A DNA stretch of 64,000 nucleotides. Source: Acidimicrobiales bacterium (GTDB taxonomy: Bacteria; Actinomycetota; Acidimicrobiia; Acidimicrobiales; SZUA-35). Location: NCBI GenBank assembly GCA_047974625.1, contig JBKECK010000054.1:4988-68987 (forward strand), in the 5' to 3' direction. A program made the translations under genes and the position numbers. Positions 7,627 through 37,739 of this stretch are shown here, in pieces. The stretch's first letter is position 1; every line of letters begins with the position of its first letter. The notes under the pieces are model-generated. The model saw nothing but the letters and a program-made list of their open reading frames with translations. It did not search any database and was not told the origin of the DNA.

Positions 7627-8226
7627 ATGATCGGCGTCGATGACGACGTCATGTCGGCTGAGCGTGGTGCCGCGCTGGTGGAGACGGCCCTGATGGCCCC
7701 GTTCCTTCTACTGTTGACCTTGGGCGTCGTCGAGGTCGGCGTGGCCTGGCAGAAGCAGACCACGGTGCAGTACGCGTCCAGGGCGGCTGCGGTGGCTGGT
7801 TTCGCGGCCGGGAACACCCCGGATCACGATGCCCAGATGATCCAGGCCCTGATGCGCGATCTGCGGGGCCGTGGCGTGGACGAGGTCGACTGGATGGTCG
7901 TCTTCGACGCGGACCGGTACGACGAGGTGCCGGTGCGCTGCCTGACGCCGGAGGCGATGCGGGACGGTGGGGTCGACGGGGTGTGTGTCACCTATCCCAC
8001 CTCGGTCGTGGACGAGGTGGCCGCCGGCGGGGCCACCTTCAGCGGATCATGCTCGAACCGGCCCGATCGGCGGTGGTGTGCCACAGACCGGCTCAAGTCG
8101 CGGGGTTGGAAGGTTGGGGTGGGGTTCTCGGCCACCGAGCAGAGCCTGACCCGTTTCGTGCCCGGATTCGACCAGTACACCGTCGCCGACACCGTGATCA
8201 TCAAGGAACAGGCCCGTCATGGATAG
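7627..8226 (+). CDS. TadE-like pseudopilin / pilus-assembly protein
   Basis: The N-terminus AERGAALVETALMAPFLLLLTLGVVEVG is the TadE-like motif (ERGxxxVExAL + hydrophobic helix). Start is uncertain (7606 GTG, 7627 ATG with AAGAGG upstream, or 7651 ATG). Confidence 0.7.
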   Translation: MIGVDDDVMSAERGAALVETALMAPFLLLLTLGVVEVGVAWQKQTTVQYASRAAAVAGFAAGNTPDHDAQMIQALMRDLRGRGVDEVDWMVVFDADRYDEVPVRCLTPEAMRDGGVDGVCVTYPTSVVDEVAAGGATFSGSCSNRPDRRWCATDRLKSRGWKVGVGFSATEQSLTRFVPGFDQYTVADTVIIKEQARHG

Positions 8227-26955: not shown

Positions 26956-27462
26956 ATGGCGATCCGGTGCGAGGTTGTTGAGGGTGATATAGCCGTCGAG
27001 GCGGTGGACGCCATCGTGAACGCGGCCAACACCGGCCTGCTCGGCGGCAGCGGGGTGGACGGGGCCATCCACCGGGCGGCCGGCCCGGAGCTCCTGGCTG
27101 CCTGCCGGCAGATCGGCGGTTGTCCCACCGGGGAGGCCCGCCTCACCCCCGGCTTCGCCCTCCCGGCCCGTTGGGTCATCCATACCGTCGGGCCGGTCTG
27201 GCACGGCGGCGACGACGGCGAGGCCGAGCTGTTGGCGTCGTGCTACCGGTCATCGCTGGCCCTGGCCGACGAGGTGGGCGCCGGCACGGTAGCCTTCCCG
27301 GCCATCTCCACCGGGGTGTACGGCTACCCGAGCGAGGCGGCGGCCGAGATCGCCCTGGCTACCCTCCGCTCCACCCCCACCGGGGTGCGGACCGTCCGGA
27401 TCGTGGCCTTCGACGCCACCACCGCGGATGTCTACCGGCGTCTCCTGGCCGAATCCACCTGA
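26956..27462 (+). CDS. Macro domain protein (O-acetyl-ADP-ribose deacetylase, YmdB-like)
   Basis: [42 protein letters not shown] and [12 protein letters not shown]. Confidence 0.9.
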
Positions 27463-27524
27463 GCTGAGCGGGACCGGGCTAGGAAGGACGGGGGCCGGAC
27501 GGCCCCGGCAAGGAGGCTGCTCCG

Positions 27525-28580
27525 ATGAGTTCCGACCACCCCCTCCAGCTCGGCATGATCGGCCTGGGCCGGATGGGCGCCAACCTGGTCCGCCGCGTCA
27601 TGGCCGGAGGCCACCCGTGCGCCGTCCACGACGTCGACGTGGACGTTACGGCGGCCGTGGCCCGTGAGGGGGCGATCGGGGCCGGCGACCTGACGGATCT
27701 GGTCGCCGCCCTGGACCGGCCCCGCAATGTGTGGATCATGGTTCCCGCTGCCGTCGTCGACGGGGTCGTCGACCAGTTGGCCGAACTGCTCGACCCCGAC
27801 GACATCGTCATCGACGGGGGCAACTCGTACTACCGCGACGACATCGACCGGGCCGCCAGGTTGGCCGAGCGGGGCCTCCACTATGTGGACTGCGGCACCA
27901 GTGGTGGGGTCTGGGGCCTGGACCGGGGCTACTGCCTGATGATCGGGGGCGAGGACGAACCGGTACGTCGCCTGGACCCGATCTGGCGGGCGATCGCCCC
28001 GGGGCCCGGTTCGGTGGAGCCCACGCCGGGACGGTCCCCGGCCGCCGGCCCGGCCGATCAGGGCTACCTCCACTGCGGACCGGCCGGCGCCGGGCACTTC
28101 GTCAAGATGGTCCACAACGGGATCGAGTACGGGATGATGGCCTCCATCGCCGAGGGCCTGTCGATCATCCGCCACGCCGACGTCGGCCTAGCCGATCACG
28201 CGATCGACGCCGAGACGGCGCCCCTGCGGGACGGCCGCTATTTCCGGTACGAGATCGACGTGGCCGAGGTGGCCGAGCTCTGGCGGCGGGGATCGGTGAT
28301 CAGCTCGTGGCTGGTCGACCTCACCGCCGCCGCCCTGGCCGCCTCCCCCGACCTGGCCGAGTTCACCGGGCGGGTGTCTGACTCGGGGGAGGGTCGCTGG
28401 ACGGTGATGGCCGCCATCGAGGAGGGCGTCCCCGCGGCCACCATCACCGCCGCCCTCAACCAGCGGTTCGAGTCCCGCGACAACGGGATCTTCGCCGGCC
28501 AGGTCCTCTCGGCCATGCGGTCCCGGTTCGGTGGGCACGACGAGCAGGAGGGCGGGCCGGGCGGCCGGCCCCCGGTGTGA
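27525..28580 (+). CDS. gnd: 6-phosphogluconate dehydrogenase, decarboxylating (short Gnd/YqeC-like form)
   Basis: LGMIGLGRMGANLVRR, GGNSYY, VDCGTSGG, GHFVKMVHNGIEYG and SDSGEGRWT. AAGGAGG sits 8 nt upstream of the ATG. Confidence 0.9.
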   Translation: MSSDHPLQLGMIGLGRMGANLVRRVMAGGHPCAVHDVDVDVTAAVAREGAIGAGDLTDLVAALDRPRNVWIMVPAAVVDGVVDQLAELLDPDDIVIDGGNSYYRDDIDRAARLAERGLHYVDCGTSGGVWGLDRGYCLMIGGEDEPVRRLDPIWRAIAPGPGSVEPTPGRSPAAGPADQGYLHCGPAGAGHFVKMVHNGIEYGMMASIAEGLSIIRHADVGLADHAIDAETAPLRDGRYFRYEIDVAEVAELWRRGSVISSWLVDLTAAALAASPDLAEFTGRVSDSGEGRWTVMAAIEEGVPAATITAALNQRFESRDNGIFAGQVLSAMRSRFGGHDEQEGGPGGRPPV

Positions 28581-29317
28581 CCGGACCGGTCGGGTCACCC
28601 CCGCCGTCCCGCCTGAGGGTGGTGACCGTCGACGACGCCGCGGCCGTGGCCGACCATGGTGCCGCCCAGCTCGCCGCGGTGATCACCGACGTGGTGGCGG
28701 CCCGGGGCCGTTGCCGGCTGGCCGTGAGCGGCGGATCCACCCCGGCGCCCGCGTTCGCCCGGCTGGCCGGGATGGACCTGCCGTGGAACCGGGTGACGGT
28801 CTGGCAGGTAGACGAGCGGGTCGCCACCGCGGGCGCTCCGGACCGGAACCTGACCATGATTGCGGCCACCCTCGGGGCCACCCCGGCCCGGATCGTGGCC
28901 ATGCCCGTGGATGGTCTCGTCCCGGCCCGGCGGGCCGGTCCCGCCACCGGCCCCGACGTCGGACGGGCGCTGGCCGCGGCCGCCAACCGGTACGCCGCCC
29001 TCCTTCCCGAACGGTTCGATCTCGTCCACCTGGGTCTGGGCGCGGACGGCCACACCGCCTCACTGGTGCCCGGCGACCCGGTCCTCGACGTTCGCGACCG
29101 GCTGGTCGGCGGCACCCGGCCCTACCAGGGGCTCCGGCGGATGACGCTGACCTACCCGGCGTTGGCCCGGGCCGACCGGCTGGTGTGGCTGGTGTCCGGT
29201 GGGGACAAGGCCGGCGCGGTGGCCGCACTCCTGGCCGGCGACCGGTCGGTACCGGCCGGCCGGGTCGCCCTCCCCGCCTCTTCGGTGCTGATCGCCGACC
29301 GGGCCGGTCTCGGTTGA
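28577..29317 (+). CDS. pgl: 6-phosphogluconolactonase
   Basis: GTG 28577 overlaps the gnd stop (GTGA). LAVSGGSTP, VTVWQVDERV, DLVHLGLGADGHTASL and WLVSGGDKA. Confidence 0.85.
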   Translation: MTGPVGSPPPSRLRVVTVDDAAAVADHGAAQLAAVITDVVAARGRCRLAVSGGSTPAPAFARLAGMDLPWNRVTVWQVDERVATAGAPDRNLTMIAATLGATPARIVAMPVDGLVPARRAGPATGPDVGRALAAAANRYAALLPERFDLVHLGLGADGHTASLVPGDPVLDVRDRLVGGTRPYQGLRRMTLTYPALARADRLVWLVSGGDKAGAVAALLAGDRSVPAGRVALPASSVLIADRAGLG

Positions 29318-29328
29318 GGGGCCCTCCC

Positions 29329-30579
29329 TCACGTCACCGTGCCGGCGTCGGTGGCGGCGTACAGGACCCCGGACTCCCGGAGCCGGTCGATCTGATCGTC
29401 GGTGTAGCCGATCTCGGTCAAGACGTCGGGACCGTCCTGACCGAGCCGGGAGGCGTGGCGCCGCACGGAGGCCGGGGTGGCCCCGAACCGGATGGGCGGC
29501 GGGATCTGCCGGTAGGGCCCCACCTCGGGGTGCTCCACCACCGGTAGGGCGTCCACCAGTTCGTCGAGGGTGGCCGCCCGGGTGGCCGGGATGGCGTGAT
29601 CCCGGCAGAACTCCATCCACTCCTCGGTGGTCCGGTGCCGCAGCAGCCGGGCCACCTCGCGGTACAGGGAACCACTGTTGGCGATCCGCGACTCCCGGGT
29701 GGCAAAGCGCTCGTCGTCGGCCAGCTCCGGCCGTCCGCCGACGGTGAAGAGGTCGACATAGTGCTCGGCCGCGTAGGGCAGGACGTTGATCCACCCGTCC
29801 GAGGTGGCCTGGGGGCGGCGCTCCGGGGTCAGGATCCGCTGGTACCCGGACGGACCGACGGGGGGCTCCGCGATGGCGGCCGAGCCGTGTTCGACGAGTA
29901 CGAAGGACCGCATCACGTCGATCATCGGGACCTCCACCTCCTGGCCCTCGCCGCTCACCGCCCGGTGGTAGAGGGCAGCCAGGACGGCCGAGGCGATGGT
30001 CAGGCCCGACACCTTGTCGGCCACCAGGGTGGGCAGCAGGGCGGGTTCGTGACCCTGGCGGGCGAACAGGTCACCCACCCCGCTGGCCGACTGGATGATG
30101 TCGTCGTAGGCGGGGGCGTCGGCCTGGTCACTGTCGCCGGGATAGCCCTGCGCCCGGCAGAACACCACGTCGGGCCGGACCGCTCGCACCTCGTGGTAGG
30201 TGAGACCCAGGCGGGCCAGCGGCCCCGGACGGAGATTGGTGACCACCACGTCACAGGTGGCCGCCAGGGCCAGGACGGCGTCCCGACCGGCCGCCTGCTT
30301 CAGATCGAGACCGACACTGCGCTTGTTGCGGAGCAGGTTCATGGCCACCCCCGACAACCCGGGAGCCGGCCCGGGGCCCATGGCCCGGTTCGTGTCGCCG
30401 TCGCGACCCTCGATCGAGATCACGTCGGCGCCGAGGTCACCGAGGGTCTGGGTGGCCAGGGGGCCCATCACCACCGAGGACAAGTCGAGCACCCGGACGC
30501 CGTCCAGCGGCCCTGTCGGGCCGGTTCCGTTCCCATCCGATCCGGGGGCTCCCCCGGGCACCACCTCGCCATCGTCCAT
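29329..30579 (-). CDS. CaiB/BaiF family (class III) CoA-transferase
   Basis: ORF 29329..31254(-), ATG 30579. GVRVLDLSSVVMGPLATQTLGDLGADVISIE, NKRSVGLDLK and VVVTNLRPG. Confidence 0.85.
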   Translation of the reverse strand: MDDGEVVPGGAPGSDGNGTGPTGPLDGVRVLDLSSVVMGPLATQTLGDLGADVISIEGRDGDTNRAMGPGPAPGLSGVAMNLLRNKRSVGLDLKQAAGRDAVLALAATCDVVVTNLRPGPLARLGLTYHEVRAVRPDVVFCRAQGYPGDSDQADAPAYDDIIQSASGVGDLFARQGHEPALLPTLVADKVSGLTIASAVLAALYHRAVSGEGQEVEVPMIDVMRSFVLVEHGSAAIAEPPVGPSGYQRILTPERRPQATSDGWINVLPYAAEHYVDLFTVGGRPELADDERFATRESRIANSGSLYREVARLLRHRTTEEWMEFCRDHAIPATRAATLDELVDALPVVEHPEVGPYRQIPPPIRFGATPASVRRHASRLGQDGPDVLTEIGYTDDQIDRLRESGVLYAATDAGTVT

Positions 30580-30638
30580 GGGGCCGGAGCTTAGGACCCG
30601 CGCCGATGGTGCGGCCCATCGGTCTCCTCCGGCCGGTC

Positions 30639-30661
30639 GTCCCGGGCCCACCACCCGGGAC
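30639..30661 (-). terminator. Stem-loop 10 nt after the sigma-factor stop (no U tract)
   Basis: GTCCCGGG (30639-30646) and CCCGGGAC (30654-30661) form an 8-bp stem with a 7-nt loop. An overlapping alternative stem CCCACC/GGTGGG exists. Confidence 0.4.
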
Positions 30662-30671
30662 GGGTGGGCGG

Positions 30672-31283
30672 TCAGGAGCCGGCCATGTCGTCCCGGAGCT
30701 GGTCCCGGGCGTTCTTGACCCAGCGTTTCACCGTGCCCTCGGGGACGGGGCCCCGGCTGGAGTCGAACAGCTCCTGGAGCCGTTCCGGTGTCGACATCTC
30801 GGCGGCGATCTCGCGGTAGCCGATCCCCAGCTGGCGTAGGCCGAGGGCGAACGCCTCGGGCCGGGAGAGACGGTCGAGCCCGTCCAGCAGGTCGACCCGG
30901 AGTCCGCCCAGCACACTGGTCCGCTCGATCGCCTCCTCGCTCGGCAGCCGGCCCCCGTGGGCCCGGTGGAGCCGGTCCGACTCGGCCTGCCGGCGGCGGT
31001 AGAAGCTCCGCACCTCGTTGAAGGTGAGCGCCGCCAACCAGGAACGGAGGCGGGTGACGTCCCGGAGCCCCCCGATGCGGCGGATGATCGAGATCGACAC
31101 GTTCTGGGCCACGTCCTCGCCGTCCCCCCGGTACGGGAACTGGGAGCCGGCCAGCCGGAGGATCCACGGCCGTACGTGGGCGGCCAGGTCTCCGGCCGCG
31201 GCCTGGTTGCCGGCCACGGCCCGGGCGGCCAGGTCCTGGGCGACCGCCCACCACTCCGGGGAATCGACGCGGCGCGGCACCAT
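30672..31283 (-). CDS. ECF (sigma-70 family, group 4) RNA polymerase sigma factor
   Basis: From ORF 30672..32306(-), ATG 31283. Region 2 is DGEDVAQNVSISIIRRI...LRSWLAALTFNEVRSFYRRR. Region 4 is LSRPEAFALGLRQLGIGYREIAAEM...GTVKRWVKNARDQLR. Confidence 0.8.
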   Translation of the reverse strand: MVPRRVDSPEWWAVAQDLAARAVAGNQAAAGDLAAHVRPWILRLAGSQFPYRGDGEDVAQNVSISIIRRIGGLRDVTRLRSWLAALTFNEVRSFYRRRQAESDRLHRAHGGRLPSEEAIERTSVLGGLRVDLLDGLDRLSRPEAFALGLRQLGIGYREIAAEMSTPERLQELFDSSRGPVPEGTVKRWVKNARDQLRDDMAGS

Positions 31284-33118
31284 CAGCTGACCACCCGGAA
31301 CGACCGGACGATCTGGTCGAAGGTGGCCAGGTCGTCGTCGCTGAGCGGGACGGCCATCAGCTCGTCGACCCGGATGGCGTAGGTGCCGCCGGTGTCGGGG
31401 ACCGCGTAGAACACGGACTCGGTGCCCGACTGGACGAGTCGTCGGCGCAGGATCCCCTCGCCGAGGTCGTCGATCGGGGTCTCCGTGGCCCCGTCCGGCC
31501 ACAGGACGTCGAACTGGTGCAGCACCGTGGCCGGAGCCGCCGACGGCCAGAACGTCACGGCCAGGTAGCGGCTGTGGGTGTCGTCCACGTCGACGGCGGT
31601 GAGGCACGAGGCCGGGTCGTCGACCAGGAACCATGCGGTGGGGAGGGAGAGTCGTACACCGCCCGCCGTCTGTTCCTGGAGGCCCGGTGACGTGGTGTCG
31701 TCCTGCCGGGGTACGGTTGGGCCGTCGATCAGGGCCAGTCGCTCCCCCACCTCGGAGACGTACTCCAGTTCGTCGTCGTCGAACGGCCCGTCGGCACTGG
31801 AGATCGACAGGCCGAGGGTGCCGCAGCTCCGGCCCGCGAACAGGGCGGCCACCTCGTTGCCGTCCCCGTTCAGGTAACGGACCAGGCGCCGGTCGCCGGA
31901 CTCCTTCGAGCCCTCGGGCATCGGCAGTTCGGTGGACGCGATGACCTCGGCCGTCAGGTCCGTCGCCGTGAGCAGTTGGACGGCCGTCGCCGGGGTGGCC
32001 GCGGCCATGGGGGCGACGGTGAGGATCATCAGGCGGTCCTCGCTGGTGGCGGCCACGATGCCGGCGTCGGCGCCGTCGGCGGTGACCACCCAGTCGTCCT
32101 CGAGCTCCAACCGGAAGGCGGCGCCGGCGGGGGCGACATCGGTCAGGGGATCCGCCGCCGTGGCTGATCGCCGGATCAGCAGCGATCCGATCACCACCGT
32201 CACCACGGCCAGCACCGTGGCGAGCAGGACGGGAACCCGGTTCCGCCGCCGGGGCGGCAGCGGTCGCCAGACCTCGGCCGGGGCGGGGGGCGGGCTCGTG
32301 ATCCACGGGGCCACGACGTCGCGGACCGTGCCACCCGAGGGCCGGTCGTCCCGGTCTGTCGCCGTCATCCGGGACACGAGGGCGGCCAGTTCCGGCGGCA
32401 CCCCGTCGGCGAGTTCGGTGAGCGGTTCCAGGGGCTCACCGAGCTGGGCCGAGCGACCCGAGAGCATCTCCCAGGCGATCACCCCCACCGAGTAGATGTC
32501 GGAACCGGTGTCGCATACCCCCTGCTCCCGGACCTCGGGGGCGGCGTACACGGCGGTGCCGACCACCCGGGAGAAGTTGGACTTGAGGGCGGCCTCCTTG
32601 GTCAGACCGAAGTCGGCCACGACGAGCTGCTCCCCGTCGCCGGTCGGGCGGAACAGGAGGTTGGCCGGGGAGACATCCCGGTGGATGATGCCGAGCCGAT
32701 CGTGGATGTGGCCCAGGGCGGCCAGGGTCCGGTCGACCACCCAGGCCGCCTGGCCGAGCCGGTCCGGCGGATGGAGCGGCATCCGCTGGGCCAACGAGCC
32801 CCCCTCGCAGAGCTCGGTGGCGAGATAGCGCCGGTCGTGGCCGACCCCATGCCCACCCCCGTGGTCGATCCCATGACCGACATAGCCGGGTACCGCCCCG
32901 GCCCCATCCGGTCCGAGCCGGTCGACGGCGGTCTCGAGCAGTTCACACTCGGCCTCGAAGCGGTGGACGACGTTGAGATCGTCGAGCCAGTTGGGTGACA
33001 GCACCTTGAGGGCCACGGGCCTGTCGTCGCGGGCGGCGGCCACGTAGGTGACGGCGAACCCGCCCGAACCGGCCACTCCGACCAGCTGGTAGCCCCCGAT
33101 GGTGGTGGCGTCCGGCAC
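31283..33118 (-). CDS. Transmembrane Ser/Thr protein kinase with ~290-aa extracytoplasmic domain of unknown type
   Basis: GTG start. GSGGFAVTY, VALKVL, IIHRDVSPANLL, VADFGLT and YAAPEV are present. A single TM (VPVLLATVLAVVTVVIGSLLI) lies at ~aa 295-315. The stop shares its A with the sigma ATG (TGATG). Confidence 0.85.
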   Translation of the reverse strand: MPDATTIGGYQLVGVAGSGGFAVTYVAAARDDRPVALKVLSPNWLDDLNVVHRFEAECELLETAVDRLGPDGAGAVPGYVGHGIDHGGGHGVGHDRRYLATELCEGGSLAQRMPLHPPDRLGQAAWVVDRTLAALGHIHDRLGIIHRDVSPANLLFRPTGDGEQLVVADFGLTKEAALKSNFSRVVGTAVYAAPEVREQGVCDTGSDIYSVGVIAWEMLSGRSAQLGEPLEPLTELADGVPPELAALVSRMTATDRDDRPSGGTVRDVVAPWITSPPPAPAEVWRPLPPRRRNRVPVLLATVLAVVTVVIGSLLIRRSATAADPLTDVAPAGAAFRLELEDDWVVTADGADAGIVAATSEDRLMILTVAPMAAATPATAVQLLTATDLTAEVIASTELPMPEGSKESGDRRLVRYLNGDGNEVAALFAGRSCGTLGLSISSADGPFDDDELEYVSEVGERLALIDGPTVPRQDDTTSPGLQEQTAGGVRLSLPTAWFLVDDPASCLTAVDVDDTHSRYLAVTFWPSAAPATVLHQFDVLWPDGATETPIDDLGEGILRRRLVQSGTESVFYAVPDTGGTYAIRVDELMAVPLSDDDLATFDQIVRSFRVVS

Positions 33119-33202
33119 GGCCCCTGGACCTCAGCGGTGGGTCGATCCGGGAATTCGGCCTCCGGGCGCGAACCGGACCGTGTCCTGCGGACTCTCCAGT
33201 AC

Positions 33203-33230: not shown

Positions 33231-34250
33231 ATGCCCACTCCCCCCACCGTGCGTCCCGTCGGCACCGACGGCCGGCCCTCCGCCCGGGGCACCCGTCCGT
33301 GCCGTCGTCGACGGCTCCTAGCCCCACTCCTCACCGTGCTGATGCTAACGGCAGCGGGTTGCGCCCGACACTCGGCCCGGGTCGCCGAGGGACCAGCAGG
33401 CCCCGACGCCCCCGTGGCCGATGAGGAGGCCGGTGGCGGGACACCGGCGCAGGACCCGGTGCGGCGGTGGCCGGGCCAGTCCCCGGCCGCCGCGATCGGG
33501 GGCCCGCTGCCCACCGACAAGATCGGCACCGAGGAGATGACGGTCTTCCTCGCCGAGACGGTCTGCGAGCCGGAGGTCACCGACGTTGCCGGCTTCGCCA
33601 CCCTGGTCTGCAACCATGCGACCGGGAACGTTCGGGTGGTCGCCTACCGGTTCAGCGACCCAGGGCTCACCTGGGTGCAGGGAACCGGGTTCGCCGAGGA
33701 CTACATCACTACCGACATCCCGGACTGGTGCACCTACGGGATGCTGGTGGACGAGTGGATCATCTTCTTGTTCCACCGGGAGAGTCGGGAGGCGACCGAG
33801 GTGGTGTCAGCGTTCCAGTCGCGGTTCTGGGATGCGGTCCCGCTGGTGGTGGGCTGCCTGTTCGACCCGGTGGAGGGCGGCACCACGGTGGTGGACTTTG
33901 AGCGGACCTGGGGGACCTCGGGGTGGTGCAATCCGGACTATCGGGGCAACGTGCAGTACCGGAAGGGATTCGCCAACGCCCATCCCGATGCCGAGGCGTT
34001 GCCGGCGGCCGGGTTCGTGTGTCGCCGGAATGGTGCTGACGTGTCGGCTTCCATGTATTCCAACTCGGCGGACGCGGCCTTGGCCGTGGAACGGCTCCGG
34101 CAGGACTCGGCTGCGGGCACGTGCCGCTGGGTCGGGGTGGTGGACCGGTGGGTGTTCGAGGAGGACACGCGGTCGTCGTCCGGCGACGGGGCCGACTTCG
34201 TCTCTGGCCTCGACCAGGTCCGGGCCACGGTGGCTGTCGGCTGTCCCTGA
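33231..34250 (+). CDS. Lipoprotein of unknown function, 8 conserved Cys (paralog 1)
   Basis: From ORF 33099..34250, ATG 33231 (GAGGAG 8-13 nt upstream). RRRRLLAPLLTVLMLTAAGC is a signal peptide plus lipobox. I recognise no domain. About 70% identical by eye to the next gene. Confidence 0.75.
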   Translation: MPTPPTVRPVGTDGRPSARGTRPCRRRRLLAPLLTVLMLTAAGCARHSARVAEGPAGPDAPVADEEAGGGTPAQDPVRRWPGQSPAAAIGGPLPTDKIGTEEMTVFLAETVCEPEVTDVAGFATLVCNHATGNVRVVAYRFSDPGLTWVQGTGFAEDYITTDIPDWCTYGMLVDEWIIFLFHRESREATEVVSAFQSRFWDAVPLVVGCLFDPVEGGTTVVDFERTWGTSGWCNPDYRGNVQYRKGFANAHPDAEALPAAGFVCRRNGADVSASMYSNSADAALAVERLRQDSAAGTCRWVGVVDRWVFEEDTRSSSGDGADFVSGLDQVRATVAVGCP

Positions 34251-34366
34251 CCGTCCGCCGGCAACCCGCCCGCGGACAACAGCCGCTCCGGATGCGGTGG
34301 AATCTCCTTTACGAACCATCAACCTCGATCTCGATCGTTCCCGCCCCGACCCCCAGGAGCAGGCTG

Positions 34367-35368
34367 ATGCCCAATCCTCTCCCCGTGCGCCCCCGTCCCC
34401 TGACCCGACCCGACCGGATCGGGACCCGGTCCCCGATCCGGTTGCTTCGCCGGCGGGCCTTGGCCCCCCTCGTCGCCCTGGCGATGCTGGCCACCGCCTG
34501 CCGCGGCCAATCGGACGGTGAGTCGGCCACCGGTTCGGAGTCCGAGGTCACGGGTGTCGACGCCCCGCCGGAGCGGCGCTGGCCGGGGGACACCCCCGCC
34601 GGGGCGGCCGGGGGTCTGGTGCCCACCGACAAGGTCGGGGTCGATGAGATGACGGCCTTCCTCACCGACACCATCTGTGCCCCGGAGCAGACCGACAACG
34701 AGGGTTCCCGGTACACCCTCCTGAGCTGCGACCACGAGTCCGGGGATGTCCGGGTGGTGGCCTTCCAGTTCGACCAGCCGGCGGCCGCCTGGGTGCGGGG
34801 GGCCGGACTCGCCGAGGACTACATCGCCACCGACATCCCGGAGTGGTGCACCTACGGGATGGTGGTGGACGAGTGGGCGATCTTCCTGTTCCACCTGGAG
34901 AGCCGGGAGGCGGCCGAGGTGGTGTCGGCGTTCCAGTTCCGGTTCTGGGATGCGCTACCGATGGTGGTGGGCTGCCTGTTCGACGCCGTGGAGAGCGGCA
35001 CGACGGTGGTCGACTTCGAACGGACCTGGGCCGCCTCGGCCTGGTGCAACCCGGACTTCCGGGGCAACGTGCCCTTCCGCAAGGCGTTCGCCGACACCCA
35101 TCCCGACACCGCCGTGCTGCCCGCGGCCGGGTTCATGTGCGGCCGCAACGGTGGTGACGTATCGGCGGCAATGTATCCCACCTCAGGGGACGCGGCCCTG
35201 GCCGTGGAACGGCACCGGGACGAGTCGGCCACCGGCACGTGCCGCCGGGTCGGGGTGGTGGACCGGTGGGTGTTCGAGGAGGACACGGGGTCGTCCTCCG
35301 GGAGCGGGGCCGACTTCGTCTCCGGCCTCGACCAGGTCCGAGCCACGGTGGCCATTGACTGCCCCTGA
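34367..35368 (+). CDS. Lipoprotein of unknown function, 8 conserved Cys (paralog 2)
   Basis: From ORF 34121..35368, ATG 34367 (CAGGAGCAGG upstream). LLRRRALAPLVALAMLATAC is a signal peptide plus lipobox. Colinear with paralog 1, including all 8 Cys and the C-terminal ...DFVSGLDQVRATVA[VI][GD]CP. Confidence 0.75.
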   Translation: MPNPLPVRPRPLTRPDRIGTRSPIRLLRRRALAPLVALAMLATACRGQSDGESATGSESEVTGVDAPPERRWPGDTPAGAAGGLVPTDKVGVDEMTAFLTDTICAPEQTDNEGSRYTLLSCDHESGDVRVVAFQFDQPAAAWVRGAGLAEDYIATDIPEWCTYGMVVDEWAIFLFHLESREAAEVVSAFQFRFWDALPMVVGCLFDAVESGTTVVDFERTWAASAWCNPDFRGNVPFRKAFADTHPDTAVLPAAGFMCGRNGGDVSAAMYPTSGDAALAVERHRDESATGTCRRVGVVDRWVFEEDTGSSSGSGADFVSGLDQVRATVAIDCP

Positions 35369-35398: not shown

Positions 35399-35806
35399 TC
35401 AGGCCTGGCAGTGGCCGCAACGCCCCGAGACCCGCACGTCCACCGTGGCCGGGGCGAAGGCCGAGGTCCGGTCGATCTGGCGGCGGAGGGCGGCCACCAA
35501 TTGGGAGTCGTGGTGCTGCACCGCACCACACCTATCGCAGACCAGGTGGATGAACGTGTCTCCGTGGGCGCGTTCCCAGCTGACCGCGTCGCCCAGTCGG
35601 GACTCGCGCACCAGGTTGAGTTCGGCGAACAGGCCGAGGGCCCGGTACACCGACGAGAGGTTCACGGTCGGGTCGATACCGGCCACCCGTTCGGCGATCT
35701 GCTGGGCGTTGAGATGGCCGGCGTCGGTGCCGAGTGCGTCCCACACCACCCGGCGGGCACGGGTTACCCGATGCCCGTTCGACCGCAGCATCTCCTCCAG
35801 GTCCAC
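35399..35806 (-). CDS. Fur family transcriptional regulator (metal-uptake repressor; Nur/Zur-like by context)
   Basis: HRVTRARRVVWDAL...LNAQQIAERV....NLSSVYRALGLF (winged helix). Metal sites are HGDTFIHLVCDRCG and GRCGHC. Divergent from the cbiM-type importer. Confidence 0.85.
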   Translation of the reverse strand: MDLEEMLRSNGHRVTRARRVVWDALGTDAGHLNAQQIAERVAGIDPTVNLSSVYRALGLFAELNLVRESRLGDAVSWERAHGDTFIHLVCDRCGAVQHHDSQLVAALRRQIDRTSAFAPATVDVRVSGRCGHCQA

Positions 35807-35879: not shown

Positions 35880-35946
35880 TCGATGACTCATAGGCTGACC
35901 GACCAGCCCGCCCTCATCGAGCCCTGGAGCCGCCCCGATGATCGCC

Positions 35947-36936
35947 ATGCACGCCCCCGACGGTCTGCTCAGCGCCCCGGTGGCCCTGGTCACGGCGGTG
36001 ATCAGCGTCGCCGTCCTGGCCGTGGCGGTGCACCAGAGCGGCCGCCAGCTCGGCGACCGTCAGGCCCCGCTGGCCGGGCTGGCGGCGGCATTCATCTTCG
36101 CCGCCCAGATGGTCAACGTCCCCGTGGCCGGTGGCACCAGCGGGCACCTCTTGGGAGGCACCCTGGCCGCCGTCCTGCTGGGGCCCTGGGTGGGGGCCGT
36201 GGTGGTGGGGGTGGTGGTCCTCGTCCAGGCCCTCGTCTTCGCCGACGGGGGCATTACCGCCCTCGGCTACAACCTGCTCGACATGGCCATCGTCCCCACC
36301 TTCGCCGGGTGGGCCCTGTTCGTGGCCCTCCGTCGGGTCATGCCCGCCCGGGCCAGCGGTGTGGTCGGGGCCGCCGCCCTGGCCGCCGGCCTGTCCACCG
36401 TGCTGGCCGCCGCCACCTTCTCCCTGCTGTGGCTGTTCGGGGCCACGGCCCCGGTCCCGTTTGACACCGTTTTCGGGTCGATGGTGGGGGTCCACACCCT
36501 GATCGGTGTGCTCGAGGCGGTGATCACGGGCTCGGTGCTGGGCGCCGTCCTGGCCACCCGTCCCGACCTGGTGTACGGCGGGCAGGACCTCCGGCTCTCC
36601 CCGTCCCCGGGCCGGGGTCGGGTGGACACCCGGACCTTCGTCATCGGGGCCGTGTTCGCCACCCTGGTGGTGGCCGTTGTGGTGAGCCAGTTCGCCGCCG
36701 ACACGCCCGACGGCCTCGACCGGGTGTCCGGGGACCACGGGATGGCCCCGGACACCGACCACGCCATGTCGTCGGGCCCGTTCGCCGACTACGCCACCGA
36801 AGGTGTTGGCAACGAGACGGTGAGCCTCGCCCTGGCCGGCACGGTCGGCGCCGCCCTCACCCTGCTGGTCGGGGGCGGCATGCTCAGCGCCGCCCGCCGG
36901 ATGACCGGGTCGGTCGCAGTACCGCCGGGCCGGTGA
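35947..36936 (+). CDS. cbiM: ECF-transporter substrate-capture component CbiM/NikM fused to a C-terminal PDGLE-domain (CbiN-like) module
   Basis: ORF 35938..36936. I place the start at ATG 35947 so the protein begins MHAPDG, because the N-terminal Met-His is the metal ligand in CbiM/NikM. GGTSGHLLGG is present. The C-terminal TM-ADTPDGLDRV-TM module follows. Confidence 0.8.
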   Translation: MHAPDGLLSAPVALVTAVISVAVLAVAVHQSGRQLGDRQAPLAGLAAAFIFAAQMVNVPVAGGTSGHLLGGTLAAVLLGPWVGAVVVGVVVLVQALVFADGGITALGYNLLDMAIVPTFAGWALFVALRRVMPARASGVVGAAALAAGLSTVLAAATFSLLWLFGATAPVPFDTVFGSMVGVHTLIGVLEAVITGSVLGAVLATRPDLVYGGQDLRLSPSPGRGRVDTRTFVIGAVFATLVVAVVVSQFAADTPDGLDRVSGDHGMAPDTDHAMSSGPFADYATEGVGNETVSLALAGTVGAALTLLVGGGMLSAARRMTGSVAVPPGR

Positions 36937-37739
36937 GCGGCCACCACCCCCATCCGCCGGAGGTGACCGGTCGCTCCCCCCAGGAGGCCGACGTCGACGG
37001 TCCGACCCGCGGCCCCGGCCGGCCACTCGCCCCCGAGGTGAAGCTGGTGGGCCTGTTCGGTTTCGTCACCGGGGTGGCCGTCACCCCCCGGCACGGGGTC
37101 GTCGTCCTGGTCGGCGACCTGCTGGTCCTGATCGCGGTGGTGGCCTGGTTCCGGCTCCCGGCCCGGGTGGTGGTGCGGCGCCTCGCCGTGATCGTCCCGT
37201 TCCTCCTCGCCGCGTCCGCCCTGCCGCTGGTGGCCGGGGGGGACCGGGTCACAGTGGCCGGGGTCGGCCTGTCGGTCGAGGGCCTGTGGGCGGCCGCGGC
37301 GATCGGGGCCAAGGCCGTGCTTGGCGCCGGGGCCAGCATCGTGGTGGCCACCAGCACGCCGGTGGCCGAACTGACCACCGGTCTGGGGCGGCTCCGCCTC
37401 CCCCCGGTGGTGGTGTCGATCGTGGCCTTCATGTTCCGCTACCTCGATCTCATCGGTGACGAGTCGGCCCGGATGCGCCGGGCCATGACCGCCCGGGGGA
37501 TGCGGTCCCGCTGGTTGGGTGACGCCGGTCCCGTCCTGGCCGCCACCGGTGCCCTGTTCGTCCGCAGCTACGAGCGGGGCGAGCGGGTCCACCTCGCCAT
37601 GGTGGCCCGCGGCTACACCGGCACGATGCCAGCGCCGGACCGGGCGGCGGCGCCGGGCCGCCGGTGGCTGGCCGCCGTGGCGGTGACCGCCCCGGCCTGG
37701 TTGCTGGCTGGGTGGGCGGCGTGGGGGCCGGGCCGGTGA
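36933..37739 (+). CDS. cbiQ: ECF transporter transmembrane (T) component CbiQ
   Basis: GTG 36933 overlaps the cbiM stop (GTGA). Multi-TM protein with FRYLDLIGDESARMRRAMTARG...SYERGERVHLAMVARGY, typical of CbiQ/EcfT. Confidence 0.8.
   Translation: MSGHHPHPPEVTGRSPQEADVDGPTRGPGRPLAPEVKLVGLFGFVTGVAVTPRHGVVVLVGDLLVLIAVVAWFRLPARVVVRRLAVIVPFLLAASALPLVAGGDRVTVAGVGLSVEGLWAAAAIGAKAVLGAGASIVVATSTPVAELTTGLGRLRLPPVVVSIVAFMFRYLDLIGDESARMRRAMTARGMRSRWLGDAGPVLAATGALFVRSYERGERVHLAMVARGYTGTMPAPDRAAAPGRRWLAAVAVTAPAWLLAGWAAWGPGR

What the first reader, a model, noticed from the sequence alone, without database searches (positions are those of the whole stretch)
30672..33118. Ser/Thr kinase gene translationally coupled to an ECF sigma factor gene, with no anti-sigma factor in sight
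Seen in sequence:
- The 611-aa kinase has all catalytic motifs intact.
- Its TGA shares an A with the ATG of a 203-aa ECF sigma (TGATG).
- A hairpin and an unrelated CoA-transferase gene follow.
- The upstream neighbour is divergent.
- No ORF with an anti-sigma (ZAS or other) signature is adjacent.

Established knowledge:
- Most ECF sigmas are held by a co-encoded anti-sigma.
- A minority of ECF groups are genomically linked to Ser/Thr kinases instead.
- In the one case I know to be studied (Vibrio EcfP/PknT), the sigma is activated by phosphorylation.

Inference: this pair is a kinase-controlled ECF switch with an uncharacterised ~290-aa extracytoplasmic sensor. The sigma keeps an acidic DGEDVAQ stretch in region 2, so the mechanism need not be identical to EcfP.
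Basis: partly seen in the sequence, partly recalled or inferred. Interest (0 to 1): 0.65.

Follow-up and report, generated by a model that had tools for sequence, protein, structure and literature searches.

The report
Kinase-coupled ECF sigma factor pair
A membrane receptor kinase gene and a divergent stress-type sigma factor gene form a conserved, probably self-activating two-gene signalling unit with no anti-sigma factor, in a rare lineage of uncultured Acidimicrobiales; it is a new variant of a known class rather than a new kind of system.

Summary
On the minus strand, a 611-aa Hanks-type kinase gene (33118..31283) overlaps a 203-aa ECF-like sigma gene (31283..30672) in TGATG. No anti-sigma gene is adjacent.

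- **Conservation:** the pair is adjacent in all 7 related loci examined, in either gene order. None of 56 unrelated ECF loci has an adjacent kinase.
- **Promoter:** a bipartite motif, GGAGAG-N18-GTTCGCG, sits upstream of the pair in 5 loci and once in the window. It looks like an autoregulated ECF promoter.
- **Sensor:** the extracytoplasmic domain models as two PsbP-like modules. It has only 9 relatives among 1.84 billion representative proteins.

The catalytic-loop lysine (HRDxKxxN) is serine in the window kinase, and is serine or phenylalanine across the family. The VAIK-Lys, HRD-Asp and DFG-Asp residues are kept.

The sigma keeps DAED (DGED), so it is not ECF43 and the EcfP charge switch does not apply. 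It has a conserved linker motif (RTSVLGG-RVDLLD) and a 16-aa insertion in the sigma-4 helix-turn-helix.

The most likely mechanism is direct phosphorylation of the sigma outside region 2.2, but this is inferred. Kinase-linked ECF groups are already described, so this is a new variant of a known kind, of moderate interest.

The parts
33167..33197 (-). Promoter-like bipartite motif GGAGAG-N18-GTTCGCG. The GTTCGCG element starts 55 nt upstream of the kinase GTG. Proposed ECF-type -35/-10 pair of an autoregulated operon.
   Evidence: The same motif, with the same spacing and the orientation of the pair, occurs upstream in L066, L068, L001 and L060 (GCAGAG there), whichever gene comes first. The exact copy is unique in the 64-kb window. 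Copies with up to 2 mismatches occur at chance level (4 found, 4.0 expected from shuffles). Function is inferred.
31283..33118 (-). Receptor Ser/Thr kinase gene, 611 aa, GTG start. The cytoplasmic kinase domain covers about residues 1-265.
   Evidence: Pfam Pkinase scores 93.1 bits. Best solved relatives are PknA, StkP and PknB. Full-length homologues lie next to the sigma in L066, L060, L068, L069 and L001, and the C-terminal part in L065.
32660..32683 (-). Catalytic loop HRDVSPAN (residues 146-153). The consensus lysine is Ser150.
   Evidence: Alignment to PknA 4x3f. Family members have HRD[VIL]SPGN, and L001 has HRDLFPGN.
32174..32236 (-). Single transmembrane helix VPVLLATVLAVVTVVIGSLLI (residues 295-315), preceded by RRRNR. 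This predicts a cytoplasmic N-terminus and an external C-terminus.
   Evidence: Read directly from the sequence. The position is conserved in the family alignment.
31286..32173 (-). Extracytoplasmic sensor region (residues 316-611), modelled as two tandem PsbP/Mog1-like alpha/beta modules. Cys432 and Cys505 are invariant.
   Evidence: AlphaFold2 model with pLDDT 82.6 and pTM 0.77. Foldseek matches PsbP, CyanoP, M. tuberculosis Apa and MTC28, and Tsi3, with probability 1.0, best E 2.4e-5 and target-normalised TM-scores of 0.44-0.63. No Pfam family matches. Only 9 representatives reach E <= 1e-3 among 1.84 billion.
30672..31283 (-). Divergent ECF-type sigma factor gene, 203 aa. Its ATG overlaps the kinase TGA (TGATG).
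   Evidence: The family profile hits sigma-E 1or7 at E 3.8e-11. The AlphaFold2 model (pLDDT 83.9) shows sigma-2 (helices 9-108), a disordered linker and sigma-4 (130-202).
31104..31124 (-). Region 2.2 acidic motif DGEDVAQ (residues 54-60). The family consensus is GDAEDVAQ.
   Evidence: D54, D57, V58 and Q60 are invariant in the 14-member alignment.
30879..30926 (-). Conserved linker motif ERTSVLGG-L-RVDLLDG (residues 120-135). S123 is invariant. Best candidate phospho-acceptor region.
   Evidence: R121, S123, G127, R129, V130, D131 and L133 are invariant. pLDDT is below 50 for residues 115-130, so the segment is probably disordered. The motif persists as RRTSVVAGTRLDLLD in relatives of 33-39% identity. 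Its role as a phosphosite is inferred by analogy with EcfK T106 and SigH T106/T110.
30744..30791 (-). 16-aa insertion (TPERLQELFDSSRGPV, residues 165-180) in the turn of the sigma-4.2 helix-turn-helix, just after Ser164.
   Evidence: Present in 11 of 14 family members and absent in P0008-P0010. Alignment to sigma-E stops here. The model predicts an extra helix at 166-173, with block pLDDT of 86-93. The insertion explains the sub-threshold Sigma70_r4_2 score.
30580..30671 (-). 92-nt gap between the sigma stop and the CoA-transferase start, containing G+C-rich stems.
   Evidence: MFE is -56.2 kcal/mol but z = -0.93 against shuffles. No T-tract terminator was found. Weak evidence for an operon boundary.

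Best explanation
This is a two-gene signalling operon that replaces the usual anti-sigma factor with a receptor kinase.

**Shown**
- A single-pass Hanks-type kinase carries an external tandem PsbP-like domain.
- Its gene overlaps the gene of a divergent ECF-type sigma by one base.
- The two genes are always adjacent and have been inherited together in a small Acidimicrobiales-type lineage.
- No anti-sigma factor is encoded next to them.
- A conserved bipartite motif precedes the pair.

**Inferred**
- The motif is the sigma's own promoter, giving positive autoregulation.
- An envelope or extracellular cue bound by the PsbP-like modules activates the kinase.
- The kinase phosphorylates the sigma directly and so switches it on.
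- Because the acidic DAED patch that contacts the RNA polymerase beta' subunit is intact, the switch cannot be the ECF43/EcfP charge replacement in region 2.2.
- The most likely target is the invariant Ser123 (with Thr122) in the conserved, disordered sigma-2/sigma-4 linker. This parallels the linker phosphosites of Xanthomonas EcfK and M. tuberculosis SigH.
- A second candidate is Ser164, at the sigma-4 insertion.
- The serine that replaces the catalytic-loop lysine is taken as a family-specific tuning of an active kinase, not as loss of activity.
For: **Pair conservation**
- The junction is TGATG in the window. It is a 4-nt overlap in L065, L066 and L069.
- The order is kinase then sigma in the window, L065, L066/L067 and L069. 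It is sigma then kinase in L001, L060 and L068.
- Both the kinase domain and the sensor domain are homologous across all of these loci.
- Among 56 unrelated ECF loci, none has an adjacent kinase and 3 have one within 7 kb. Fisher p = 1.8e-9.
- Sigma and kinase pairwise identities correlate at r = 0.91.

**No anti-sigma factor**
-.

**Promoter motif**
-.

**An active kinase is plausible**
- The G-loop, K38, E57, D148, N153, D169 and APE are conserved at 34-48% overall identity.
- By the criteria of the bacterial STK atlas (loss of VAIK-Lys, HRD-Asp or DFG-Asp), it is not a pseudokinase.
- The one relative whose kinase domain has decayed to an N-lobe remnant (P0049) has no sigma within 5 kb.

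**Precedent**
- Kinase-linked ECF groups typically lack anti-sigma factors (PMC7826278).
- EcfP and EcfK are phosphorylated directly. EcfK is also phosphorylated in the linker, where pT106 is modelled to bind a basic pocket of beta' (PMC13147305).
- Groups that keep DAED are expected to work differently from EcfP (PMC8999054).

**Linker**
- The motif is invariant and predicted to be disordered.
Against: - No phosphotransfer evidence exists for this family.
- The catalytic-loop lysine that contacts the ATP gamma-phosphate in canonical Hanks kinases is missing in every family member. Catalysis could therefore be weak or absent.
- The linker motif is also conserved in related ECFs that have no kinase neighbour (L071/P0027 and P0035). 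It may serve RNA polymerase binding rather than phosphorylation.
- With DAED intact, the sigma is not obviously inactive on its own, so why it would need activation is unexplained.
- One-base overlap suggests equimolar synthesis, which is more typical of binding partners than of an enzyme and its substrate.
- The promoter motif was not found in the 300 nt upstream of the L069 kinase.
- The roughly 7 loci represent only about 4 deep lineages.
Confidence: 0.55

Rival explanations
1. The kinase acts mainly as a membrane-tethered sigma-binding partner, a functional anti-sigma factor. Its kinase domain holds the sigma at the membrane, and a signal at the PsbP-like domain releases it. Phosphotransfer is dispensable or only secondary.
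For: - The catalytic-loop lysine is lost across the family.
- The one-base or four-base overlaps favour 1:1 synthesis, as in sigma/anti-sigma pairs.
- The sigma keeps DAED and so may be active unless restrained.
- No other restraint is encoded nearby.
Against: - All ATP-binding and catalytic triad residues, the Mg-binding Asn and the activation loop are under clear conservation. Bacterial pseudokinase families typically lose VAIK-Lys, and usually HRD-Asp or DFG-Asp as well.
- No anti-sigma domain is detectable, and there is no spare cytoplasmic sequence. The kinase domain starts at residue 1, and only about 30 residues link it to the membrane helix.
- No sigma-sequestering kinase domain turned up in the papers read here.
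Confidence: 0.2
2. The kinase controls the sigma indirectly. It phosphorylates an unlinked anti-sigma factor, anti-anti-sigma factor or other regulator, as PknB does with RshA for M. tuberculosis SigH. The adjacency only ensures co-expression.
For: - Actinobacterial precedent: PknB phosphorylates the anti-sigma factor RshA.
- Related ECFs with the same linker motif exist without kinase neighbours and without a visible anti-sigma factor. Regulators acting in trans are therefore plausible in this clade.
Against: - Strict adjacency that survives a gene-order flip, together with co-inheritance of the two genes, points to a direct partnership.
- No third conserved gene accompanies the pair. The upstream lipoprotein genes and the downstream CoA-transferase gene have no counterparts in related loci.
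Confidence: 0.15
3. There is no control of the sigma by the kinase. The kinase is simply the main regulon member of an autoregulated sigma and signals to other substrates.
For: - One promoter-like motif appears to serve both genes.
- No further exact copy of the motif occurs in the 64-kb window, so the operon is the only local target.
Against: - This does not explain the lack of any anti-sigma factor or other input to the sigma.
- It does not explain conservation of tight translational coupling when the sigma lies downstream of the kinase.
- Published kinase-linked ECF groups show the opposite direction of control.
Confidence: 0.07

Closest known systems
EcfP/PknT of Vibrio parahaemolyticus (ECF43)
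   Same: An ECF sigma is encoded next to a transmembrane Hanks-type kinase, with no anti-sigma factor. The published control is direct phosphorylation of the sigma (PMC8999054).
   Different: EcfP lacks DAED (it has STTA) and is activated when phospho-Thr supplies the missing negative charge in region 2.2. The window sigma keeps DGED (family consensus DAED), so that switch cannot apply. The sensor domain differs, and the kinase catalytic loop lacks the lysine.
EcfK/PknS of Xanthomonas citri (ECF43)
   Same: An adjacent kinase and ECF sigma. EcfK is phosphorylated in the sigma-2/sigma-4 linker (T104, T106, S108, S110) as well as at T51. Linker pT106 is needed for activity together with T51 (PMC13147305). 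The window sigma also has conserved hydroxyl residues in its linker (T122, S123).
   Different: PknS has the canonical H/YRDxKxxN loop and a TPR-rich periplasmic domain. The EcfK linker is described as poorly conserved, whereas here the linker is among the most conserved parts of the protein. The regulons are unrelated: T6SS for EcfK, unknown here.
M. tuberculosis SigH/RshA/PknB
   Same: An actinobacterial ECF sigma with DAED-type region 2.2. It is phosphorylated by a Hanks kinase at linker residues T106 and T110.
   Different: [quoted passage not shown] PknB is not encoded next to sigH. No anti-sigma factor is found here.
Other kinase-associated ECF groups of the ECF Hub (ECF59-62, ECF217, ECF267, ECF283; subgroups of ECF27, ECF40, ECF210)
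   Same: A conserved kinase lies in the neighbourhood, an anti-sigma factor is usually absent, and DAED-like motifs are retained. The mechanism is uncharacterised. ECF283 is actinobacterial.
   Different: Membership could not be tested because the ECF Hub models are not available here. The window sigma scores below the general ECF cutoffs and has a sigma-4 insertion, so it may not have been captured by that classification.

Membership tests
ECF (group 4) sigma-70 factors | [quoted passage not shown] | tested here: met
   Sigma70_r2 scores 30.3 bits against a cutoff of 24. The family profile hits sigma-E, AlgU and SigE structures at E of 1e-11 to 1e-9 over both domains. The AlphaFold2 model shows sigma-2, a linker and sigma-4, with no sigma-3.
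ECF (group 4) sigma-70 factors | Passing the curated cutoffs of general ECF models (TIGR02937; Sigma70_r4_2) | tested here: not met
   TIGR02937 scores 34.4 against 42.9, and Sigma70_r4_2 scores 17.7 against 25.7. The shortfall is explained by the 16-aa insertion: the insertion-less relative P0008 passes TIGR02937 at 44.4.
ECF43 (EcfP/EcfK type) | DAED absent from region 2.2, with Ser/Thr at that position | tested here: not met
   DGEDVAQ in the window and GDAEDVAQ as family consensus, with D54 and D57 invariant. It aligns to the acidic motif of sigma-E.
ECF43 (EcfP/EcfK type) | A Ser/Thr kinase encoded next to the sigma and no anti-sigma factor | tested here: met
Kinase-associated ECF Hub groups (ECF59-62, 217, 267, 283) | Assignment by the group-specific ECF Hub HMMs | not testable with these tools
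No NCBIfam subfamily model is passed by the window sigma or its relatives.
Hanks-type Ser/Thr protein kinases | Protein kinase fold with VAIK-Lys, HRD-Asp and DFG-Asp | tested here: met
   Pkinase scores 93.1 bits. K38, D148 and D169 are present and conserved in the family.
Hanks-type Ser/Thr protein kinases | Catalytic loop H/YRDxKxxN with its lysine | tested here: not met
   HRDVSPAN in the window. It is Ser in 6 family kinases and Phe in 1. Confirmed against PknA 4x3f.
Bacterial pseudokinases (as defined in the bSTK atlas) | Loss of one or more of VAIK-Lys, HRD-Asp or DFG-Asp | tested here: not met
   All three are retained.
Sigma/anti-sigma pairs (class I anti-sigma domain, ZAS, RskA etc.) | An anti-sigma domain protein co-encoded with the sigma | tested here: not met
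   Flanking proteins have no anti-sigma family hit. No free ORF of 25 aa or more lies in the gaps. The kinase has no extra cytoplasmic domain. The rest of the genome could not be examined.
PsbP/Mog1-like fold (sensor domain) | Structural similarity to PsbP-type alpha/beta sandwich domains | tested here: met
   The model has pLDDT 82.6. Foldseek gives probability 1.0 and E of 2.4e-5 to 1e-3 against PsbP, CyanoP, Apa, MTC28 and Tsi3, each covering one of the two modules. This is fold level only; no sequence family matches.

The most novel reading that the evidence does not exclude
The family uses a control mechanism not yet described for any sigma factor. A kinase whose catalytic loop has serine in place of lysine either sequesters the sigma through its kinase domain, or phosphorylates it at the family-specific sigma-4 helix-turn-helix insertion or linker. 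That would gate promoter DNA binding or passage through the RNA exit channel, rather than supplying the region-2.2 charge as in ECF43.
Probability: 0.15. Interest if true: 0.75.

Novelty: new variant of a known kind. Interest (0 to 1): 0.45.

Why it matters
How kinase-linked ECF sigma factors that keep the DAED patch are controlled is an acknowledged open question (PMC8999054). Only ECF43 members have been studied.

This family is a compact two-protein test case with three sharply defined candidate features:
- an invariant linker serine;
- an insertion in the sigma-4 helix-turn-helix;
- a lysine-less catalytic loop.

It also comes with a predicted target promoter, so a heterologous reporter assay could be built directly.

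The practical limits are that it comes from uncultured Acidimicrobiales and is very rare. The finding also extends an existing class rather than founding a new one.

Tried and rejected
**Searches that fell short**
It returned only distant ECFs of 22-45% identity, which I reused as a negative control.
- The word-indexed search with the sensor domain found one relative.
- The word-indexed search with the kinase domain was capped at 8000 candidates.
- P0002 and P0034 could not be located on contigs.
- The ECF Hub supplements and the Huang 2015 actinobacterial survey are not held, so no ECF-group assignment was possible.

**Ideas tested and dropped**
- The divergent lipoprotein genes as a conserved third component: no homologues in related loci.
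- The CoA-transferase as part of the unit: not conserved.
- The hairpin as a significant terminator: z = -0.93 and no T tract.
- Further promoter copies in the window as local regulon members: only chance-level near-matches.
- The kinase as a pseudokinase by standard criteria: the catalytic triad is intact.
- ECF43 membership: DAED is present.
- The linker motif as specific to kinase-linked sigmas: it also occurs in relatives without kinase neighbours.
Full report
**1. What is in the sequence**

The window is 72.6% G+C. Its sigma protein is identical to one annotated on a 308-kb contig of an uncultured Acidimicrobiales bacterium.

Both genes lie on the minus strand. The kinase ORF runs 33118..31283, has a GTG start and encodes 611 aa. 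The sigma ORF runs 31283..30672, has an ATG start and encodes 203 aa. The junction reads GTCAGCTGATGGTG, so the stop and start codons share one A.

A family III CoA-transferase gene (30579..29329) follows after 92 nt. That gap contains G+C-rich stems, but it folds no better than shuffled sequence (z = -0.93) and has no T tract.

Upstream and divergent lie two tandem paralogous lipoprotein-like genes.

None of the flanking proteins matches an anti-sigma family. Neither intergenic gap has room for another ORF. The kinase domain starts at residue 1 and is joined to the membrane helix by about 30 residues, so there is no hidden anti-sigma domain.

**2. The kinase**

Pfam Pkinase scores 93 bits. 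The closest solved relatives are PknA, StkP and PknB.

The following motifs are present and conserved among relatives:
- the glycine-rich loop (GSGGFAV);
- K38 in VALKVL;
- E57 in helix C;
- D148 and N153 in the catalytic loop;
- D169 in DFG;
- APE.

One hallmark is missing. The catalytic loop reads HRDVSPAN, and solved PknA aligns hrdvKpgn to hrdvSpan.

The substitution is family-wide. Relatives have HRD[VIL]SPGN, and one has HRDLFPGN. More distant sigma-linked kinases have HRDVKPSN/HRDLKPSN (L064, L062) or HRDLTPGN (L002).

A recent atlas of bacterial STKs defines pseudokinases by loss of VAIK-Lys, HRD-Asp or DFG-Asp. By that test this kinase is canonical.

**3. The sensor**

After a single membrane helix (residues 295-315, preceded by RRRNR) come 296 residues with no Pfam match.

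An exhaustive HMMER search of 1.84 billion representative proteins found 9 proteins at E <= 1e-3. All are kinases of this family or fragments of them.

An AlphaFold2 model built from these sequences (pLDDT 82.6, pTM 0.77) shows two tandem alpha/beta modules. Foldseek matches each module to PsbP-type domains, including plant and cyanobacterial PsbP, M. tuberculosis Apa and MTC28, and Tsi3. Probability is 1.0 and the best E-value is 2.4e-5. Two cysteines are invariant.

One relative, P0049, keeps the sensor and membrane helix but has only a decayed N-lobe remnant of the kinase. It has no sigma gene within 5 kb.

**4. The sigma**

It is a weak but real ECF-type sigma:
- Sigma70_r2 passes its cutoff.
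- Sigma70_r4_2 and TIGR02937 fall below theirs.
- A profile of the 14 close relatives hits sigma-E, AlgU and SigE structures at E of 1e-11 to 1e-9.
- No NCBIfam subfamily model is passed.

Three features stand out.

- **The acidic region 2.2 motif is kept.** It is DGED in the window and GDAEDVAQ in the family consensus, and it aligns with GDVPDVVQ of sigma-E.
- **The sigma-2/sigma-4 linker is unusually conserved.** It carries ERTSVLGG-x-RVDLLDG, with S123 invariant. AlphaFold2 predicts the segment to be disordered (pLDDT below 50 for residues 115-130).
- **There is a 16-aa insertion in the turn of the sigma-4.2 helix-turn-helix.** It is predicted to form an extra short helix. Three family members lack it, yet they keep the kinase partner and the upstream motif. 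The insertion is therefore not needed for promoter choice.

**5. Conservation of the pair**

Close relatives of the sigma number only 14 clusters at 90% identity. E-values then jump from 1e-52 to 1e-17.

Every locus with visible neighbours has the kinase directly adjacent:

| Locus | Gene order | Junction |
|---|---|---|
| window | kinase then sigma | 1-nt overlap |
| L065 | kinase then sigma | 4-nt overlap |
| L066/L067 | kinase then sigma | 4-nt overlap |
| L069 | kinase then sigma | 4-nt overlap |
| L001 | sigma then kinase | 17-nt gap |
| L068 | sigma then kinase | 30-nt gap |
| L060 | sigma then kinase | boundaries not called; stop-to-stop ORFs abut |

The kinase domain and the sensor domain are both homologous throughout.

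The 56 generic ECF loci returned by a non-specific scan serve as a control. None has an adjacent kinase and 3 have one within 7 kb. Fisher p = 1.8e-9, not corrected for relatedness.

Sigma and kinase pairwise identities correlate at r = 0.91, which is consistent with joint inheritance. The loci amount to about four deep lineages.

A neighbouring ECF clade at 33-39% identity shares the linker motif (RRTSVVAGTRLDLLD) and DAEE. Only some of its members have a kinase neighbour: L002, L062 and L064 do, while L071 and P0035 do not.

**6. A shared promoter-like motif**

The sequence GGAGAG-N18-GTTCGCG lies upstream of the first gene of the pair, in the pair's orientation. It occurs in the window (33197..33167, with GTTCGCG starting 55 nt before the kinase start), L066, L068, L001 and L060, where the first element is GCAGAG.

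It precedes the kinase where the kinase is first, and the sigma where the sigma is first.

The exact motif occurs once in the window. Near-matches occur at chance frequency.

Its bipartite form and spacing fit an ECF-type -35/-10 promoter, so positive autoregulation is the natural reading. This is inference. L069 lacks the motif in the 300 nt examined.

**7. Mechanism**

Kinase-linked ECF groups are established: ECF43, ECF59-62, ECF217, ECF267 and ECF283, plus subgroups of ECF27, ECF40 and ECF210. They typically lack anti-sigma factors (PMC7826278).

In ECF43, EcfP is switched on by a phospho-threonine that replaces the missing DAED charge (PMC8999054). EcfK is additionally phosphorylated in the linker, where pT106 is modelled in a basic pocket of beta' (PMC13147305). 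M. tuberculosis SigH is phosphorylated at linker T106 and T110.

The window sigma keeps DAED, so it is not ECF43 and cannot use the EcfP switch.

I consider direct phosphorylation elsewhere the most likely mechanism (0.55). The linker Ser123/Thr122 is the best candidate site, and Ser164 at the insertion is the second.

The rivals are:
- sequestration of the sigma by the lysine-less kinase domain (0.20);
- indirect control through an unlinked partner (0.15);
- mere co-expression (0.07).

Two points weigh against the main model. The catalytic-loop lysine is lost, and the linker motif also occurs in relatives without a kinase neighbour.

**8. Comparison and verdict**

The finding is real and the pair is a conserved unit.

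It works like the known kinase-ECF systems but fails the defining ECF43 test. It could not be tested against the other ECF Hub groups.

Four things distinguish it:
- DAED retained together with a conserved linker;
- the sigma-4 insertion;
- the Ser-for-Lys catalytic loop;
- a very rare tandem PsbP-like sensor.

I rate it a new variant of a known kind, with interest 0.45.

Noticed in passing
window 33231-34250 (+) and 34361-35368 (+): Two tandem paralogous genes, 63% identical over about 340 aa. Each has an N-terminal signal sequence with a lipobox-like cysteine (LTAAGC / LATAC) and several conserved cysteines. Neither matches Pfam or NCBIfam, and neither has a counterpart in the related kinase-sigma loci. 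They are divergent from the kinase gene.
   Followed up: partly
L070 5001-6230 (protein P0049): A relative of the sensor protein in which the kinase domain has decayed to a roughly 90-aa N-lobe remnant (VAVTIL in place of VAVKVL). The membrane helix and tandem PsbP-like region are kept. No sigma gene lies within 5 kb.
   Followed up: partly
L002 6001-9113; L062 4773-8561; L064; L071; proteins P0015-P0037: A neighbouring actinobacterial ECF clade (33-39% identical) shares the linker motif RRTSVVAGTRLDLLD and DAEE in region 2.2. Some members have a convergent or divergent kinase neighbour, and others have none. In L002 and L062 a lipoprotein-like gene, not an anti-sigma gene, follows the sigma. 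The L002 kinase also lacks the catalytic-loop lysine (HRDLTPGN).
   Followed up: partly
window 35399-35806 (-) and 35938-37739 (+): A Fur-family regulator gene lies divergent from a CbiM gene (with a C-terminal PDGLE domain) and a CbiQ gene. This is probably a metal-regulated cobalt/nickel uptake unit.
   Followed up: partly
window 26956-29317 (+): A Macro-domain protein gene is followed by a 6-phosphogluconate dehydrogenase-like gene and a 6-phosphogluconolactonase gene. They lie just beyond the CoA-transferase gene.
   Followed up: no
window about 32834-32878 (-), kinase residues about 81-95: A His/Gly-rich insertion (HGIDHGGGHGVGHD) in the kinase N-lobe. It is partly present in L060 and L068 and absent in L066, L001 and L069. 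Its significance is unknown.
   Followed up: no
L001 8618-10593; protein P0002: The L001 kinase continues in another reading frame after residue 438, and the sigma P0002 has an aberrant C-terminus. These are probably assembly frameshifts in the metagenomic records rather than biology.
   Followed up: no
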